Shown: positions 1-5,416 of the stretch, one piece after another
Numbering within the stretch: position 1 is the first letter of the stretch
How the letters are laid out: each line of letters opens with the position of its first letter
IMG/VR virus record: IMGVR_UViG_2690316049_000008
Location: 1 to 19,931 of that record
Direction: 5' to 3' (one strand)
From: a virus
Lineage: Duplodnaviria; Heunggongvirae; Uroviricota; Caudoviricetes
DNA length: 19,931 nt
Translations under genes and position numbers: made by a program
The notes under the pieces: generated by a model
The model's database searches: none
What the model saw: the letters and a program-made list of their open reading frames with translations, nothing else
What the model was told of the DNA's origin: nothing

Positions 1-1158
1 ATGCTCACCGTTAAGCAGATTGAAGCAGCAAAGCCGAAAGAAAAACCATACCGCCTACTCGATGGTAATGGCCTGTACCTTTATGTCCCTGTATCAGGGA
101 AAAAGGTATGGCAGCTTCGCTACAAGATTGACGGTAAGGAGAAAATCCTGACCGTCGGAAAATATCCGCTTATGACTTTGCAGGAGGCAAGGGATAAAGC
201 ATGGACCGCGAGGAAAGACATCTCGGTTGGCATCGATCCGGTAAAAGCGAAAAAGGCTTCGTCTAACAACAATTCCTTTAGCGCCATTTACAAGGAATGG
301 TACGAGCACAAGAAGCAAGTCTGGTCAGTAGGCTATGCAAATGAACTTGCAAAAATGTTTGATGACGACATTTTACCTATCATCGGCGGCCTTGAAATTC
401 AGGATATTGAGCCGATGCAACTGCTGGAAGTAATCCGCAGATTTGAAGATCGCGGTGCAATGGAGCGAGCCAACAAAGCCCGCAGAAGATGCGGCGAGGT
501 TTTCCGTTACGCTATTGTCACTGGTAGGGCTAAATATAACCCGGCACCTGACCTTGCTGACGCCATGAAGGGATACCGCAAGAAGAACTTCCCGTTTTTA
601 CCTGCCGACCAGATCCCGGCATTCAACAAAGCACTTGCAACATTTTCAGGAAGTATCGTATCGCTCATTGCGACCAAAGTTTTACGCTACACTGCCCTAA
701 GAACGAAAGAGCTTCGTTCCATGCTATGGAAGAACGTCGATTTTGAAAACAGGATTATCACCATCGACGCCAGTGTGATGAAGGGCCGCAAAATTCATGT
801 GGTCCCGATGTCGGACCAGGTGGTTGAACTTCTCACTACGCTAAGCTCAATCACCAAACCAGTATCAGAGTTTGTTTTTGCCGGGCGCAACGATAAGAAG
901 AAGCCAATCTGCGAGAACGCGGTATTGCTTGTGATCAAACAAATCGGCTATGAGGGTCTGGAAAGCGGTCACGGATTCAGGCATGAATTCAGCACGATTA
1001 TGAACGAGCACGAATGGCCCGCTGATGCTATTGAAGTGCAACTGGCACATGCCAACGGCGGTTCTGTGCGTGGAATTTACAACCATGCTCAGTATCTCGA
1101 CAAACGCAGAGAAATGATGCAGTGGTGGGCAGACTGGCTTGATGGGAAGGTTGATTAA
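1..1158 (+). CDS. int: Tyrosine site-specific integrase, P4/CP4-57-like family
   Basis: 385-aa ORF starting at ATG at position 1. The N-terminus (MLTVKQIEAAKPKEKPYRLLDGNGLYLYV...WQLRYKIDGKEKILTVGKYP) matches the arm-binding domain typical of P4-type integrases. The C-terminus has an H-x-x-R box (GHGFRHEF) and a candidate catalytic Tyr (VRGIYNHAQYL). GC is similar to the phage backbone. Confidence 0.93.
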   Translation: MLTVKQIEAAKPKEKPYRLLDGNGLYLYVPVSGKKVWQLRYKIDGKEKILTVGKYPLMTLQEARDKAWTARKDISVGIDPVKAKKASSNNNSFSAIYKEWYEHKKQVWSVGYANELAKMFDDDILPIIGGLEIQDIEPMQLLEVIRRFEDRGAMERANKARRRCGEVFRYAIVTGRAKYNPAPDLADAMKGYRKKNFPFLPADQIPAFNKALATFSGSIVSLIATKVLRYTALRTKELRSMLWKNVDFENRIITIDASVMKGRKIHVVPMSDQVVELLTTLSSITKPVSEFVFAGRNDKKKPICENAVLLVIKQIGYEGLESGHGFRHEFSTIMNEHEWPADAIEVQLAHANGGSVRGIYNHAQYLDKRREMMQWWADWLDGKVD

Positions 1159-1272
1159 AGAACAATAACAGCGCGTTGCAGCAATTACAGGAAACATCTT
1201 GTTACATACTTGGTTTTATGTCACTAACAAACTAGAGAAATTATGCATGAATAGACATATCGATCGTTATTT

Positions 1273-1288
1273 TTGTTGGTGATATACT
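1273..1288 (+). promoter_or_regulatory. Candidate sigma70 promoter: TTGTTG followed by extended -10 TGaTATACT
   Basis: TTGTTG at 1273-1278 and TGaTATACT at 1280-1288, about 60 bp upstream of the small membrane-protein ORF. Spacing between TTGTTG and the -10 is too short for a canonical -35, so activity would rest on the extended -10. Found by eye only. Confidence 0.2.
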
Positions 1289-1349
1289 TAACTGAATTTT
1301 ATGCACAACCATGTTGCGAATTTACCACATCATTACAAGGCAAACGGAA

Positions 1350-1667
1350 ATGAATAAGGATAAATGCTTAAATATAATTATATTAATAATCATTATAACA
1401 ATAATTGTTATTTCTTTTTATCCTATGTCATCAAGCTCAAAAGGGCATGATACGCAAAGTATTTCAGGTGACAACTTTAAATTAAGATCTTCTTTCTCAA
1501 GAGAATATTCATCATGCATATCAAACCTCAAAATGATAGCGCTAGACTTTGCTGGTCATAACATAGATTTCAACAGCCATAGCCAGTTCATAGCTTCAAG
1601 TGGCGAGGAAAAAATATTAGTAAAATGCACAAAAGATAATAAGTTACTATACATGCAAAATAAATGA
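1350..1667 (+). CDS. Small single-pass membrane or secreted protein of unknown function (~105 aa), cargo gene
   Basis: ORF with stop TGA at 1665-1667. N-terminus MNKDKCLNIIILIIIITIIVISFYP has a positive n-region and a ~20-residue hydrophobic core (signal anchor or signal peptide), followed by a ~80-aa Ser/Asn-rich hydrophilic domain with 3 Cys. Very AT-rich. An alternative in-frame start at 1311 (MLRIY...) would give 118 aa. No strong SD at either start. Followed directly by a strong intrinsic terminator. Confidence 0.5.
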   Translation: MNKDKCLNIIILIIIITIIVISFYPMSSSSKGHDTQSISGDNFKLRSSFSREYSSCISNLKMIALDFAGHNIDFNSHSQFIASSGEEKILVKCTKDNKLLYMQNK

Positions 1668-1673
1668 GAATTT

Positions 1674-1700
1674 CCGCACGCTTATCGCGTGCGGTTTTTT
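1674..1700 (+). terminator. Rho-independent terminator (perfect 8-bp GC-rich stem, 5-nt loop, T6 tract)
   Basis: CCGCACGC (1674-1681), loop TTATC, GCGTGCGG (1687-1694), then TTTTTT (1695-1700), 7 nt after the stop of the small plus-strand ORF. On the minus strand the same hairpin lies just past the stop of the convergent membrane-protein gene but has no U-tract, so it is mainly a plus-strand terminator. Confidence 0.75.
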
Positions 1701-3060
1701 ATTTTTTAGGCAATATATAGTATATTGCCTTATATGAAAAATATACAAATGATACAGTTATTATATTTTTTAAGAAAATAAATAAAAAGAATTCAAGGCT
1801 CTCCCTTGCCATAAAAAATGAAAAAGGCATTGTCATAAGTGCAGCTATTTGTATTACGCCAACTCTCCTCATCAATATGATTTTATCAAGAAATCTAAAA
1901 ACAACGCCTGAGATAACATATGAGCACCAGAAAAAATACTTTCCGAAAATAACAAGCGATGACCCAAGCAAAGTTGATGCCATATTCAATCCATTGCTAA
2001 GACCAAGAGCACTCACGGTAAAGTAATATGAGCTATTCATTGTGACAATTGGTTTGTCAGGCCATATGAATCTTGGGATAAACCCTGAAAATTGAGTAAA
2101 GAAATAATAGATACCACCAACATTGCGATCATTGCTAAAGTATTTAACAGCTATACTCTGATAATTGATAGGAGATACGCTATCAGCTAAATATCTTACT
2201 ATAATGCCAAACAGAGAGCCAGACTCTGAAATATCAACATCTGAGTATCTCACTATAGCCATTATACCAATTAGAATTAAGCACGCAGAGCCTATGCATA
2301 TTAACTTCAATATGCCAATTAGGCCTCTAGAGTGACAAATAAGAGCAACAATAAACATTGCGGAAAACATTACATTTCTTGAGCCACCAATAAGCACATA
2401 ATATGCCATCCCAAATAACAATGACATTATAATTGATTTAACGAACACATACTTATCGTCAGATGTAATTGCATACACTATAACAGCAGAAACAAAAGAT
2501 GACATTATCATTATAATAACACCACTACCAGCATTTCCGCCAAGCTTTAAAGCATAATCATCAGAATTAAAAGATATGCCGTTTATGGCATAAAAAGCCA
2601 TCATCCCAACAAAACTTAAAAACAACGTTGTTCTTACAAATAATTTTGGGCTACCAATAAAATATTTATCAGAAAATGTTATTTTATTTCTTCCTGCCGC
2701 TGTATGAGAGAATACATAAAACAAAACTATACCAATAAACGACAACGTAGACACATCATTTATATATTGATACGGCATATATTCTGCAGAACTAACTTTT
2801 GCCCCAACTCTAAACGGAAGCGATATATACCCAAAAAAATGAGTAAAAACAAGGAATAACATCCCAACAGATTTGAATGACACGCCATGTTTTTTGAATG
2901 ACACGGCACTTAAATATATTAATGTTATGGCATACAACGCAGGTAGCACATAAGTAAAAAATGATTCATAAATATTCATAATATTGTATGTAAAAATGAC
3001 TATTTTTACCCGATCTTTAAAGAAAGTACAGGATGATAGCGCGTTTCTACGCGCCATCAT
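1699..3060 (-). CDS. Polytopic inner-membrane protein (~11-12 predicted TM helices); probable Wzy/WaaL-like O-antigen polymerase or ligase-type surface-polysaccharide protein
   Basis: ORF with stop at 1699-1701. Hydrophobic throughout, with many 18-24-residue hydrophobic segments and one longer, less hydrophobic stretch (roughly residues 275-350) that could be a large periplasmic loop, as in Wzy/WaaL proteins. Extremely AT-rich and Ile/Phe/Tyr/Asn-rich, unlike the neighbouring phage genes. Start is ambiguous: GTG 3066 (overlaps the tailspike stop as GTGA), ATG 3060 or ATG 3057. An AAGGTGA Shine-Dalgarno that contains the tailspike TGA stop sits 2 and 5 nt upstream of the two ATGs, implying translational coupling. 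The functional call is inference from topology, composition and position, not from a recognised motif. Confidence 0.8.
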   Translation of the reverse strand: MMARRNALSSCTFFKDRVKIVIFTYNIMNIYESFFTYVLPALYAITLIYLSAVSFKKHGVSFKSVGMLFLVFTHFFGYISLPFRVGAKVSSAEYMPYQYINDVSTLSFIGIVLFYVFSHTAAGRNKITFSDKYFIGSPKLFVRTTLFLSFVGMMAFYAINGISFNSDDYALKLGGNAGSGVIIMIMSSFVSAVIVYAITSDDKYVFVKSIIMSLLFGMAYYVLIGGSRNVMFSAMFIVALICHSRGLIGILKLICIGSACLILIGIMAIVRYSDVDISESGSLFGIIVRYLADSVSPINYQSIAVKYFSNDRNVGGIYYFFTQFSGFIPRFIWPDKPIVTMNSSYYFTVSALGLSNGLNMASTLLGSSLVIFGKYFFWCSYVISGVVFRFLDKIILMRRVGVIQIAALMTMPFSFFMARESLEFFLFIFLKNIITVSFVYFSYKAIYYILPKK

Positions 3061-3062
3061 AG

Positions 3063-5243
3063 TCACCTTACAACAAATTTGCCATTGCTAATGTCGTTAA
3101 CTAGTGTTGCCACTATGTTAGCAATATCCTTAGTAGATAGGGTGTTTACGTCTCCACCGCGTAACGCACCGGAATTGGTAAATGGATACTGCTGAGGTTG
3201 TGAGCTATTGGCAAACTGGTTGTTAGCCTCATAACGTTTTGTTGGTACAGGGTTGTACCCAATACTACCTGTGGTTGTGTCAGGGGCCACACAGTTCGTA
3301 ATGTTCACTATAGCGTCAGAACCACTACCATTTGTATATATTGGCCTGTTAACTGTCCCGAATGGTTGCACAGCTACCAGCCTGTTAACAATAACACTCT
3401 GTGTGGCTAGTGCTTGTAAATAAGATTCTGCGCTTCCATTGCACCCCCTCAAGTTCACATTATCAACCTCTATGTGGCGGCAGTTAATGATGACGATATA
3501 ATGCCCATTTTCTGTGTTAGGGTAAGCGCCTACTATGCGAACATTTTTTAATGTTAAATCTGTGGTTGGCACCGCAGCAGGCCCACCGTTGAAAACAAAC
3601 CCTTTTGCACCATTTACAAGTGCGTGTATCGTAATGCCGTCAAACTCGATGTCGGCAAGATTAGTCGTGGTATTGGCTGAGTTTCTCAAAAAATAAACAG
3701 CTTCAGCAGAGCAACCTGATATCAAGAAGTTAGAAAAACGCATCCTTGTGTTTTCTACCGGATAGAAGCGGCATAACAAACCCTGCGAGCAGTTACGAAT
3801 AACAACGTTATCGTAGGATACGTCACTAGCTCCTTCAATTGCGACACCTGCGTTCGAACTTTCTACATATAGTCCAGTAACTACTCCATTACGGAAATTC
3901 CCTCGAAGACCGTGGCTTTCACAGTTTTTGATTGTAACGGCGTTTATGTTAACTCTTGTGATAGCTGTGCCATCACCATAACCGTTCATAAGGTCGTCTG
4001 ACTGAATACGCAAACCGTTACCACCAGAGGTATTAATGCTCACATCGTGAATCATAAGATTAAGCGTACGGTTTGGGCGACGTGATGAGAAGAACAAAGA
4101 TGAGGCCCAAGTGTTTCTGCAACGGATATGATGGACGTGCGCCTCTGTGGGGTCATTAACAATGATCGCCATGCCAGTTCGGTTGCTGCCATCTGGATCT
4201 TGAATTTTCCCACGACCACAATCATGTGAGTACAGATTATCGGCAAGAACCCATCTCCCATAATCCATCGTTACGTTGCTATTCCATGCCCCCTGCAATT
4301 CACACCCTGAAAGCTCAAGTGTACCTGCAGATTGCATGGCCAAACCAACCCCTGGGTCAAATGAAGCATTCTGCCGATAAAAATCAAACAAGAAATTACC
4401 GACAATGCGTATATCATATGGAGTATAGTCAAACTCTTGATTTGATTCGTTCCATGTCCGTGGGGATCTGAGCCATAATTGTCTGGAATCTACCGTCACT
4501 TTTGGCAATAACGGCTTTATGAGGATGTCTCCCTGAATATTAAATATACCTTCTACAGTTACGGGAGAGTAAGCGATCCCGATATTTCCAGATAGTGGAA
4601 GTAGTCTACTAAGTTGAGCGTCATTTTGTGCAATTTTCCAACCAGAATTAACCTCGTTAAAAAATGATATTGGGTAAAGTTCAATATTATCATTAATTAC
4701 AGTTGAGTCATAACTGGTAATTGTCAATGGTGATGATAATGGTGTGCTCATCATCATAAGGGCGCCATCAAGCCTAACGAATCTTACACCTTCGGGAATT
4801 AAGTCTCCTATTTTTGCATCAATTCCAATTTTATTAGGATAAACCTCACCACCTAAAAATCCATTCATTCCTCGAAGCCAAGATAGATTTAACATGACTG
4901 ATAACTGATCTGGATCGTACTTCAGCACATTAGGGAAATAGAACTGCTGTGATCCATATGCATCGTACACAGCCATAGAATGCCATTGTACAGTAACGAA
5001 CTTAGCAATCTGTCCGTTATATACAGGGTAGCCAGCAGCGTTAATAATTATTGGTTGCGAAACGGGAATGTGAGAGCCGTCTTCGTTCTCCACATAAACC
5101 TGAATTTGGTTTTCAGGATTTACCGGGTCCGTGTCAATTTTACCGATATAAATTTTGCCATTGGCTACGGCTTTAAAAGAACGAGCCATAGTGAAGAGTT
5201 GCGAAGGCATGCTTACCACAACATTGGCTGTAATGTCTGTCAT
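3063..5243 (-). CDS. Tailspike protein with P22/Sf6-type N-terminal head-binding domain and a divergent C-terminal receptor-binding domain
   Basis: 726-aa ORF. The first ~115 residues ([46 protein letters not shown]...NVLKYDPDQ) match, from memory, the conserved head-binding domain of P22 gp9 and Sf6/HK620 tailspikes. The remainder is Asn/Gly/Ser/Thr-rich with repetitive short beta-strand-like segments, consistent with a parallel beta-helix glycanase domain. GC drops after about nt 4900. SD GGAG lies 9 nt upstream of the ATG. Confidence 0.93.
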
Positions 5244-5262
5244 TTAATTTGCTCCGGACGTA

Positions 5263-5298
5263 GCAATTCCGGACAAGATGCAACCTGTCCGGCATTGC
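5263..5298. promoter_or_regulatory. 13-bp imperfect inverted repeat (RNA hairpin or possible operator) in the 5' leader of the tailspike gene
   Basis: GCAATTCCGGACA (5263-5275), 10-nt spacer, TGTCCGGCATTGC (5286-5298), with one mismatch. A further direct copy of TCCGGAC is at 5253-5259. It lies 20-55 nt upstream of the tailspike ATG, between the last ejection gene and the tailspike. Confidence 0.3.
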
Positions 5299-5338
5299 AC
5301 TAATGTCAGTTATGATTTGTTAATTATGAGGTGAGTCT

Positions 5339-5416
5339 ATGCAAAGAGATCTGTTGAACATTGCGTTCTACATAGTTGGTTTTTGCACGTTCCTGGTGTT
5401 TGCGAAGCTATTCTGA
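5339..5416 (+). CDS. Hypothetical 25-aa hydrophobic peptide (MQRDLLNIAFYIVGFCTFLVFAKLF), antisense to the late operon
   Basis: ATG at 5339 preceded by GAGGTGA (5328-5334) at 4-nt spacing; stop TGA at 5414-5416. Overlaps the 3' end of the gp16-like gene by 9 nt on the opposite strand. The peptide is one predicted TM helix. Too short for the ORF track, no homology evidence, could be chance. Confidence 0.2.
   Translation: MQRDLLNIAFYIVGFCTFLVFAKLF

What the first reader, a model, noticed from the sequence alone, without database searches (positions are those of the whole stretch)
1311..1700. Small single-pass membrane protein with its own terminator: possible partner or inhibitor in the conversion module
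The ORF has an N-terminal signal-anchor-like segment (MNKDKC followed by LNIIILIIIITIIVISFYP) and an ~80-aa hydrophilic domain, and ends 7 nt before a perfect 8-bp-stem terminator. It is convergent with the Wzy-like gene and shares its extreme AT content, suggesting co-acquisition. In epsilon15 and D3 conversion systems, small membrane proteins inhibit the host polymerase. No homologue is recognisable by eye and the start codon (1311 or 1350) is uncertain.
Basis: inference. Interest (0 to 1): 0.5.

Follow-up and report, generated by a model that had tools for sequence, protein, structure and literature searches.

The report
Orphan membrane protein in phage O-antigen module
A real but uncharacterised 105-residue membrane-anchored periplasmic protein travels with phage-borne sugar-chain polymerases and one family of tailspikes in E. 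coli and Providencia prophages. It is a good but untested candidate for the factor that lets the phage polymerase take over from the host's.

Summary
Window 1350-1667 (+) encodes a 105-aa protein, and the start is ATG 1350, not 1311. It has one strong transmembrane helix and an ~80-aa C-terminal part. A strong terminator follows (1674-1694, -19.9 kcal/mol). The gene lies in a 30% GC island and is convergent with a WzyE-family polymerase in a P22-like E. coli prophage at argW.

It matches no Pfam, PHROG, NCBIfam, PADLOC or PDB entry. An exhaustive HMMER scan of 1.84 billion proteins found only two other lineages (36-45% identity). Non-synonymous change is far below saturated synonymous change, and two cysteines plus about 20 other residues are invariant.

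All three lineages sit beside a polytopic polymerase-like gene and a tailspike of one receptor-binding family. The polymerases belong to two families with no detectable similarity. The phages include P22-like and myovirus-like types. The hosts are E. coli and Providencia. In two lineages the small gene lies directly upstream of the polymerase, as epsilon15 gp22 does.

E. coli carriers share a rare galF-gnd locus with its own WzyE-type wzy (66 of 5426 genomes; at least 24 of 28 carriers).

Best reading (~0.4): a new, non-homologous functional analogue of the phage inhibitors of host Wzy. Function is inferred from context only.

The parts
1280..1288 (+). Possible extended -10 promoter (TGaTATACT) for the small gene. 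The predicted transcript start is near 1295-1297.
   Evidence: Read directly from the sequence. The consensus scan did not flag it because the -35 is poor. Inference only.
1350..1667 (+). Small gene: 105 codons plus stop. It is the founding member of an uncharacterised three-lineage family.
   Evidence: ORF list. PGAP CDS WP_040073225.1. Homologues P0028, P0030, P0031 and P0032. pN 0.39-0.46 against saturated pS 0.70-0.78.
1356..1418 (+). Transmembrane helix or signal anchor (residues 3-23), ending in the invariant F-x-P motif (F23, P25).
   Evidence: Hydropathy. AF2 helix 3-23. Invariant columns.
1422..1475 (+). Variable, predicted-disordered tether (residues 25-42).
   Evidence: pLDDT below 50 over residues 25-42. 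Poorly conserved in the alignments.
1476..1664 (+). Conserved alpha+beta domain: a helix at residues 53-65 packed on a four-stranded sheet at 71-103. It carries invariant Cys56 and Cys93 and is predicted to be periplasmic.
   Evidence: AF2 pLDDT of about 88-92 over residues 50-100. Invariant residues. Periplasmic location is inferred from topology and the conserved Cys pair.
1674..1707 (+). Intrinsic terminator: 8-bp stem, 5-nt loop, T tract. It lies between the convergent small gene and wzy.
1699..3060 (-). WzyE-family O-unit polymerase gene, as annotated by PGAP. The start suggested by comparison with homologues is ATG 2979, giving 426 aa.
   Evidence: PF06899 at 68 bits. PGAP annotation. 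The homologues' N-termini align with MNIYESFF. 31% identity to the host wzy of the galF-gnd locus.
3063..5243 (-). P22-type tailspike. It has an N-terminal head-binding domain and a receptor-binding domain shared by all modules that carry the small protein.
   Evidence: PF09008. 50-52% identity to the L018 and L021 tailspikes, 70% to L014, and 68-69% to G7C gp66, MK-13 and fGh-Ecl02.
1..1158 (+). Prophage integrase IntS, marking the argW end of the prophage.

Best explanation
The gene encodes a type II (N-in, C-out) inner-membrane protein. A flexible tether holds its small disulfide-bonded alpha+beta domain at the periplasmic face of the membrane. It is a component of a phage surface-polysaccharide conversion module made of tailspike, polymerase and small protein. 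Its most likely job is to act on the host's Wzx/Wzy assembly machinery, most probably by blocking the resident Wzy of the host galF-gnd locus. That would let the prophage-encoded polymerase determine the linkage between repeat units, and so make the lysogen resistant to phages carrying the same tailspike. This would make it a functional analogue of epsilon15 gp22 and D3 Iap, built differently and unrelated to them in sequence. What is shown: the gene is real, conserved and under purifying selection, has one TM helix plus a folded domain, and is genomically linked to polymerase and tailspike in several phage and host backgrounds. What is inferred: the periplasmic orientation, the disulfide, expression in the lysogen, and the target.
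For: (1) Real gene. Three lineages at 36-45% identity have conserved length and 23 invariant residues. pN is 0.39-0.46 against saturated pS of 0.70-0.78, with dN/dS about 0.26. The gene is intact in all 13 E. coli loci inspected. (2) Architecture. There is one TM helix and a confidently modelled domain, with two invariant cysteines outside the TM. (3) Module linkage. In the window the gene is convergent with a WzyE-type wzy. In Providencia (L018) its stop overlaps the start of a 392-aa polytopic gene (precomputed PF13425 hit). In E. coli and 'E. cloacae' lineage 3 it ends 1 nt before a 406-aa homologue of that gene. In every case a tailspike of the same receptor-binding family is adjacent. (4) The L018 and L020 layout (small gene, then polymerase, convergent on the tailspike) is the layout of epsilon15 gp22-gp21-gp20. 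(5) The small protein is retained while the polymerase family changes: no BLASTP or hhalign similarity. This argues for a target other than the phage polymerase. (6) E. coli carriers of lineages 1 and 3 share one rare host locus with its own WzyE-type wzy. That locus is in 66 of 5426 genomes, in 22-23 of 26 lineage-1 carriers and in 2 of 2 lineage-3 carriers, and is 97% identical between strains 124 and MY203L1. (7) The phage Wzy is a 31%-identical paralogue of the host Wzy, as expected for an alternative polymerase acting on the same repeat unit. (8) The module survives in a decayed island with the small gene intact. Where it decays, all three genes decay together.
Against: There is no functional, expression or interaction evidence of any kind. 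There is no sequence or fold similarity to gp22, Iap, Wzz or any characterised protein. Known inhibitors are TM-only peptides, whereas here the conserved part is a soluble domain. The association with the host locus is also what tailspike specificity alone would produce, and many carriers belong to one clone (ST410), so the counts are not independent. The polymerase assignment of the 392- and 406-aa proteins is weak: Wzy_C E = 0.016, TIGR04370 E = 0.0027, plus one precomputed Pfam hit. A module with 70% tailspike and 59% Wzy identity (L014) shows no homologue in the 560 bp available after wzy. Near-overlap with the polymerase gene in two lineages would equally suit a partner protein.
Confidence: 0.4

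Rival explanations
1. It is a helper of the conversion reaction rather than an inhibitor. A periplasmic accessory factor would bind the repeat unit, Wzz or WaaL, or the phage polymerase, and so be needed for, or tune, polymerisation, chain length or ligation of the converted polymer.
For: The gene nearly overlaps the downstream polymerase-like gene in two lineages: an ATGA overlap in L018 and a 1-nt spacer in L020. It always co-occurs with the polymerase. The conserved part is a folded periplasmic domain suited to binding a protein or a glycan.
Against: It pairs with two polymerase families that show no detectable similarity. In the window it is an independent, convergent transcription unit. 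It shows no similarity to Wzz.
Confidence: 0.22
2. It is an unrelated moron product that merely occupies the moron slot next to the tailspike. One example would be a superinfection-exclusion or injection-blocking inner-membrane protein of the HK97 gp15 or P22 SieA kind (recalled from memory).
For: It has a moron-like anatomy: an AT-rich island, a candidate promoter of its own and a strong terminator. There are weak sub-threshold PHROG hits to Sie-like families (E = 0.19-0.22) over the TM region only. Small type II membrane proteins are typical of such functions (background knowledge).
Against: The PHROG hits are not significant and PADLOC gives nothing. In three lineages, across podovirus- and myovirus-type prophages, the gene stays beside the polymerase-like gene, and in two of them it nearly overlaps it. 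That would not be expected of an injection blocker.
Confidence: 0.18
3. It is a cleaved secretory protein. The hydrophobic segment would be a Sec signal peptide and the mature product a soluble ~75-aa periplasmic protein. This rival concerns the protein's form and is compatible with any of the functions above.
For: There is a Pro at the end of the hydrophobic segment. Small residues follow it in the window (SSS|S) and in L018 (AIT|K) (read by eye).
Against: The hydrophobic core is 18-19 residues long, which is long for a signal peptide. No acceptable -3/-1 site is conserved in lineage 3 (PKSADE). No signal-peptide predictor was available.
Confidence: 0.15
4. It is not a functional gene but a chance or decaying ORF.
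For: It is an ORFan in standard databases. PGAP omits it in about a third of lineage-1 genomes and in lineage 3.
Against: It is conserved across three lineages with pN well below pS. It is intact in every E. coli copy inspected, including unannotated ones. An ORF this long arises in 0.35% of shuffles. It has a dedicated terminator.
Confidence: 0.03

Closest known systems
Salmonella phage epsilon15 gp22, annotated 'serotype conversion: alpha polymerase inhibitor'
   Same: It is a small membrane protein encoded in the tailspike-proximal conversion locus. In L018 and L020 the small gene lies directly upstream of, and co-oriented with, the polymerase-like gene, and the pair is convergent on the tailspike. 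That is exactly the gp22-gp21-gp20 order.
   Different: gp22 is 66 aa with two TM segments and no soluble domain. The window protein is 105 aa with one TM helix and a folded ~60-aa domain. tblastn against 50,697 phage records, which include epsilon15, found nothing at E <= 1. In the window itself the small gene is convergent with wzy rather than upstream of it.
Pseudomonas phage D3 Iap (inhibitor of alpha-polymerase)
   Same: It is a phage-encoded single-TM product that accompanies a phage Wzy and switches off the host polymerase (function taken from PMC12004945, and PMC7685785).
   Different: Iap is a 31-aa peptide said to mimic Wzz TM2. Here the conserved, structured part is periplasmic. hhalign of the family against the host WzzB found nothing.
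Prophage-borne Wzy conversion in Acinetobacter baumannii (Wzy-Ph plus tailspike depolymerase)
   Same: A prophage carries both a tailspike or depolymerase and an extra Wzy that overrides the K-locus Wzy (PMC13228068).
   Different: No suppressor of the resident Wzy has been identified there; the authors list a specific inhibitor as one open option. That system concerns capsule rather than O or K-LPS antigen, and it has no homologue of this protein.
Sf6, HK620 and Kapi1-type P22-like coliphages with morons between int and tailspike
   Same: They share the prophage type, the argW site and the slot between integrase and tailspike that is used for O-antigen modification genes.
   Different: Those phages carry acetyltransferase or gtr genes or unassigned ORFs. 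None matches this region at the DNA level: megablast against the phage collection found nothing.

Membership tests
D3 Iap-type polymerase inhibitor | A very short (~31 aa) peptide consisting essentially of one TM helix | tested here: not met
   The protein is 105 aa, with a TM helix plus an 81-aa extramembrane part that contains a confidently modelled domain.
D3 Iap-type polymerase inhibitor | Resemblance to the TM2 region of Wzz (mimicry) | tested here: not met
   hhalign of family alignment A4 against the host WzzB gave probability 0.2% over 2 aligned columns. Only one Wzz was tried.
D3 Iap-type polymerase inhibitor | Encoded next to a phage wzy in a conversion locus | tested here: met
D3 Iap-type polymerase inhibitor | Abolishes polymerisation by the resident Wzy | not testable with these tools
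   This needs expression in a non-lysogen followed by LPS profiling.
epsilon15 gp22 alpha-polymerase inhibitor | Sequence homology to gp22 | tested here: not met
   tblastn against the phage collection gave no match at E <= 1. The gp22 sequence was read.
epsilon15 gp22 alpha-polymerase inhibitor | About 66 aa with two TM segments | tested here: not met
   The protein has a single hydrophobic segment. The next-best 19-residue window has mean hydropathy 0.65.
epsilon15 gp22 alpha-polymerase inhibitor | Gene immediately upstream of the phage polymerase, with the pair convergent on the tailspike | tested here: inconclusive
   Met in L018 and in L020-L025. Not met in the window, where the small gene is convergent with wzy.
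Wzz / polysaccharide co-polymerase (PCP-1) | Two TM helices flanking a large (>200 aa) periplasmic coiled-coil domain, with a Pfam Wzz hit | tested here: not met
   There is one TM helix and an ~80-aa periplasmic part. There is no Pfam hit and no profile similarity to WzzB.
Phage superinfection-exclusion membrane proteins (PHROG 8545 / 15667) | Significant profile match | tested here: not met
   E = 0.19 and 0.22, covering the N-terminal TM region only. PADLOC gave nothing.
Intrinsic (rho-independent) terminator | G+C-rich stem, short loop and a following U tract, more stable than shuffled sequence | tested here: met
   8-bp stem with 7 G-C pairs, 5-nt loop and T6AT6. -19.9 kcal/mol, z = -4.7.
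WzyE-family polymerase (the neighbouring gene) | Pfam PF06899 score above the gathering threshold | tested here: met
   68.2 bits against a 25-bit cut-off, covering residues 39-428. The score is far below the NCBIfam ECA-polymerase equivalog cut-off (70.8 against 510 bits), so the gene is a family member but not the ECA enzyme itself.
New small-protein family (P0001 / P0028 / P0031) | About 102-107 aa; N-terminal TM helix ending F-x-P; SSF, Y-x-x-C and DF motifs; a second Cys in C-x-K; C-terminal NKL-x-Y-x-Q | tested here: met
   Alignments A2-A4 and the invariant columns. phmmer E = 3e-15 for P0028 and 3.5e-4 for P0030. Profile E-values of 1e-37 to 1e-46.

The most novel reading that the evidence does not exclude
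The protein founds a new class of phage-encoded 'polymerase-switch' factors. In this class a membrane-tethered, disulfide-bonded periplasmic domain, rather than a bare TM peptide, silences the resident Wzy (or its coupling to Wzz or WaaL). It would be exchanged between phages as a unit with the tailspike specificity, independently of which polymerase family supplies the new linkage. This would explain how prophage-borne Wzy enzymes override host polymerases in Enterobacterales, including the ST410 high-risk E. coli clone.
Probability: 0.35. Interest if true: 0.7.

Novelty: new variant of a known kind. Interest (0 to 1): 0.52.

Why it matters
Prophage-borne Wzy polymerases are increasingly recognised as the reason why surface-polysaccharide structures differ from what the chromosomal locus predicts. 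How the resident polymerase is silenced is known in only two phages, both of which use small TM peptides. It is explicitly described as an open question elsewhere (PMC13228068; also raised for E. coli O118/O151 in PMC7685785).

This protein is a concrete, easily testable candidate with a different architecture. It sits in a module found in the internationally spread ST410 B4/H24RxC background: strain 020026 of PMC10786849 carries the host locus. In silico typing reports only 'O8' for that background and misses both the galF-gnd wzx/wzy locus and the prophage polymerase.

If the protein inhibits a Wzy through a soluble domain, it would also give a handle for structural and inhibitor work on Wzy enzymes. 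If it does not, the finding is still a conserved, unannotated gene that annotation pipelines frequently miss.

Tried and rejected
- **Family libraries:** Pfam, PHROGs, NCBIfam and PADLOC scans of the small protein and its two relatives gave only sub-threshold, TM-driven hits.
- **Word-indexed protein search:** it found only the protein itself. Pattern scans of GTDB species representatives and IMG/VR with the family alignment found nothing.
- **Phage collection:** tblastn found nothing.
- **Wzz mimicry:** hhalign against the host WzzB was negative.
- **Two polymerase families:** I tested whether the two phage polymerase families are related. BLASTP and hhalign were negative, and also negative against epsilon15 gp21.
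- **L014:** I looked for a homologue downstream of the 59%-identical Wzy. The DNA alignment showed no homology. The only feature there is a 45-aa TM ORF whose TM is 10/18 identical to the window's, which could be compositional.
- **Within-E. coli polymorphism:** there is too little diversity to test selection.
- **Host polysaccharide identity:** I tried to confirm my recollection that the host galF-gnd locus is the K40 (O8:K40) cluster. The relevant papers are not held, so this remains an unverified lead.
- **Kapi1 and Hf4s papers:** these phages modify O-antigen by other or unknown genes and are not related to this module.

Full report
**What is there**

The window is the argW end of a P22-like E. 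coli prophage. The gene order is integrase IntS (1-1158, +), the small ORF (+), a WzyE-family polymerase (-), a P22-type tailspike (3063-5243, -), then the ejection proteins gp16, gp20 and gp7 and the rest of the virion module.

The small ORF and the polymerase lie in a 30% GC island (about 1200-3000) within DNA of 45-55% GC. After MNKDK comes an 18-19-residue, extremely hydrophobic segment (mean hydropathy 2.94). The remaining 81 residues are hydrophilic. The stop codon at 1665-1667 is followed six bases later by a perfect 8-bp G+C-rich hairpin and a T tract. That hairpin has -19.9 kcal/mol and z = -4.7, and no shuffle folds as well. An ATG ORF this long arises in 7 of 2000 dinucleotide shuffles of the region.

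**Is it a gene, and where does it start?**

Standard resources call it nothing:
- Pfam, PHROGs, NCBIfam and PADLOC gave no significant hit.
- The phage collection gave no hit by tblastn.
- The word-indexed search of 5.8 billion clusters returned only the protein itself, from E. coli, on more than 320 contigs.

The exhaustive HMMER scan of 1.84 billion representatives found two real relatives: P0028 (107 aa, 45% identity, E = 3e-15) and P0030 (113 aa, 36-38%, E = 3.5e-4). A profile search added P0031, the intact form of P0030, and P0032, a frameshifted copy.

The three lineages have nearly the same length (105, 107 and 102 aa from the aligned Met). They share 23 invariant positions: F23 and P25 at the end of the TM helix, the motif SSF, Y53, C56, D66-F67, F74-N75, C93, K95 and N97-K98-L99-x-Y-x-Q. 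Synonymous sites are saturated (pS 0.70-0.78) while pN is 0.39-0.46. For the one pair where dS can still be estimated, dN/dS is about 0.26.

The gene is intact in all 13 E. coli loci examined. That includes genomes where PGAP does not annotate it and the lineage-3 copy in strain MY203L1. It is therefore a real protein-coding gene.

The start is ATG 1350. PGAP uses it and both other lineages align from it. An AAGG lies 10 nt upstream, and an equivalent AAAGG lies 9 nt upstream in the Providencia copy, whereas ATG 1311 has no ribosome-binding site. By eye there is a TGaTATACT extended -10 element at 1280-1288. The consensus scan did not report it, so this is inference only.

**Structure**

AlphaFold2, run with the four-sequence alignment, gives mean pLDDT 73.5. 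It predicts:
- a helix at residues 3-23;
- a low-confidence, poorly conserved tether at residues 25-42;
- a compact domain with pLDDT of about 88-92, made of a helix (53-65) packed on a four-stranded antiparallel sheet (71-103).

The two invariant cysteines lie in the helix and in strand 3. The short, weakly basic N-terminus and the Cys pair suggest an N-in, C-out topology with a periplasmic, disulfide-bonded domain. This is an inference. I could not run a signal-peptide predictor, and a cleaved form cannot be excluded.

**Context is the informative part**

- **Lineage 1 (the window).** In 26 of 5426 complete E. coli genomes the small gene and the wzy always occur together. The prophage sits at argW or, in the STEC306-308 strains, beside bioA-ybhB with only an 84-nt integrase remnant. 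The cassette therefore moves between prophage backbones.
- **Lineage 2 (L018).** The flanking seqA is 99% identical to that of Providencia huashanensis. The prophage has myovirus-type baseplate genes. The small gene's stop overlaps (ATGA) the start of a 392-aa polytopic protein with a precomputed PF13425 O-antigen_lig hit. That gene is convergent on an 817-aa tailspike.
- **Lineage 3 (L020-L026, L019, L030).** The hosts are E. coli strains MY203L1 and A10, a record labelled Enterobacter cloacae GS1, and several sequencing-run assemblies. The small gene ends 1 nt before a 406-aa protein that is 48% identical to the Providencia one, and that gene is convergent on a P22-type tailspike.

The three tailspikes share a receptor-binding domain at 50-52% identity. 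That domain is 68-69% identical to the C-terminal part of G7C gp66 and to tailspikes of Shigella phage MK-13 and Enterobacter phage fGh-Ecl02.

The polymerases, by contrast, are of two kinds with no detectable similarity by BLASTP or profile-profile comparison. The polymerase assignment of the 392- and 406-aa proteins is itself only weakly supported. The arrangement in L018 and L020, with the small gene followed by the polymerase and the pair convergent on the tailspike, is the arrangement of epsilon15 gp22 (annotated alpha-polymerase inhibitor), gp21 and gp20.

**Host side**

Strain 124, which carries the window sequence at 100% identity, has a six-gene Wzx/Wzy locus between galF and gnd. The genes are a WzyE-family wzy, wzx, a 496-aa unknown, a GT4 glycosyltransferase, pssD and pssE. 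Downstream of wzzB it also has an O8 mannan ABC-transporter locus with an internally stopped manC.

The phage Wzy is 31% identical to this host Wzy (E = 1e-37). MY203L1, which carries the lineage-3 module with the other polymerase type, has the same galF-gnd locus at 97% nucleotide identity.

The locus is present in 66 of 5426 genomes. It is found in 22, possibly 23, of the 26 lineage-1 carriers and in both lineage-3 carriers. Many carriers belong to one clone. Strain SCEC020026, which carries the locus without the prophage, is the B4/H24RxC ST410 reference of PMC10786849. The counts are therefore not independent. Even so, the STEC, bovine, wild-boar, duck and river isolates show that the association is not purely clonal.

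From memory, this locus resembles the K40 cluster of O8:K40 strains. I could not verify that, because the papers are not held.

**Interpretation**

What stays constant across the three modules is the tailspike specificity, the small protein and, where known, the host locus with its resident Wzy. What changes is the phage polymerase family, the phage type and the gene order.

A protein that had to fit the phage polymerase would not be expected to survive that exchange. A protein aimed at a host component that goes with the receptor polysaccharide would. The obvious host component is the resident Wzy, whose activity must be suppressed for a second polymerase to impose a new linkage. That is the role established for D3 Iap (PMC12004945) and annotated for epsilon15 gp22.

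I therefore rank 'inhibitor of the resident polymerase, or of its coupling to Wzz or WaaL' first, at about 0.4. An accessory or partner role comes next at about 0.2. The near-overlap with the polymerase gene in two lineages fits that role equally well. An unrelated moron function such as superinfection exclusion is also at about 0.2.

None of these was tested. The host-locus association is also what tailspike specificity alone would give. One related module counts mildly against strict linkage. L014 has 70% tailspike and 59% Wzy identity, yet shows no homologue in the 560 bp available. It has only a convergent 45-aa single-TM ORF followed by a hairpin.

**Comparison with known systems**

The protein plausibly works like Iap or gp22, but it is not a member of either family. 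Size, number of TM segments, the presence of a conserved soluble domain and the absence of any sequence similarity all fail the membership tests. It is best described as the founding member of a new, very narrowly distributed family within the known class of phage serotype-conversion accessory membrane proteins.

**Verdict**

Function is unproven. Interest is moderate: this is a specific and cheap-to-test candidate for an acknowledged open question, located in a clinically relevant E. coli background.

Noticed in passing
window 2979-3066 (- strand): The annotated wzy start (ATG 3060, or GTG 3066 in the ORF list) lies inside a 12-bp hairpin at 3033-3060, immediately after the tailspike stop. 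That hairpin looks like the tailspike terminator. The homologues' N-termini align with MNIYESFF, so the real wzy start is probably ATG 2979 (426 aa), with any wzy promoter in the ~50 nt in between.
   Followed up: partly
L013 versus window 1159-3066: One E. coli genome (GCA_040327395.1) has 33 substitutions spread over wzy (1711-3015) and none in the small gene or its upstream region (1159-1700). This points to a recombination breakpoint at or near the shared terminator.
   Followed up: partly
L014 3603-3740 (-); L017 1366-1521 (-): The two closest Wzy relatives (59% and 55% identity) each have a different small hydrophobic ORF convergent with wzy. One is a 45-aa single-TM ORF followed by a hairpin, and its TM is 10/18 identical to the window's. 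The other is a 51-aa ORF with two TM segments, which recalls gp22. Either could be an alternative inhibitor or a chance ORF in AT-rich DNA.
   Followed up: partly
window 3063-4900; L027 (G7C gp66): The tailspike receptor-binding domain is 68-69% identical to the C-terminal ~600 aa of coliphage G7C gp66 and to tailspikes of Shigella phage MK-13 and Enterobacter phage fGh-Ecl02. As far as I recall, the receptor of gp66 is not established. The galF-gnd polysaccharide of these hosts is a candidate.
   Followed up: partly
L029 12079-17957 and 23163-35243 (E. coli strain 124): The host carries two polysaccharide loci: a six-gene wzy/wzx locus between galF and gnd, and an O8 mannan ABC-transporter locus whose manC has an internal stop. 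In silico typing of the ST410 B4 clone reports only O8 (PMC10786849). From memory, the galF-gnd locus resembles the K40 cluster; this is unverified.
   Followed up: partly
L031 16141-18213 (E. coli MY203L1): An IS1 sits between galF and the host wzy, and the annotated host Wzy has a different, shorter N-terminus (392 against 413 aa). The resident polymerase may therefore be impaired in a strain that keeps the lineage-3 small gene, polymerase and tailspike in a decayed island between dacD and sbcB.
   Followed up: no
[not shown]
   Followed up: yes
(N273, E94, E92, 90-1): Three or four genomes carry the prophage module but not the galF-gnd locus. This may reflect O-locus replacement after lysogeny, since the ST410 B5 subclone is reported to have switched from O8 to OgN5.
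   Followed up: no
L019 8001-11481 (record labelled Enterobacter cloacae GS1); L026: These copies of the lineage-3 module are 98-99% identical to the E. coli ones, but the small gene, the polymerase and the tailspike are all disrupted together. The whole module has decayed rather than one gene selectively.
   Followed up: partly
window 5244-5407 versus L001 10195-12093: The window lacks the immI-like Ant/Arc/Mnt region between gp16 and the tailspike that strain 124's otherwise identical prophage carries. The prophages are mosaic around a constant tailspike-wzy-small-gene cassette.
   Followed up: no
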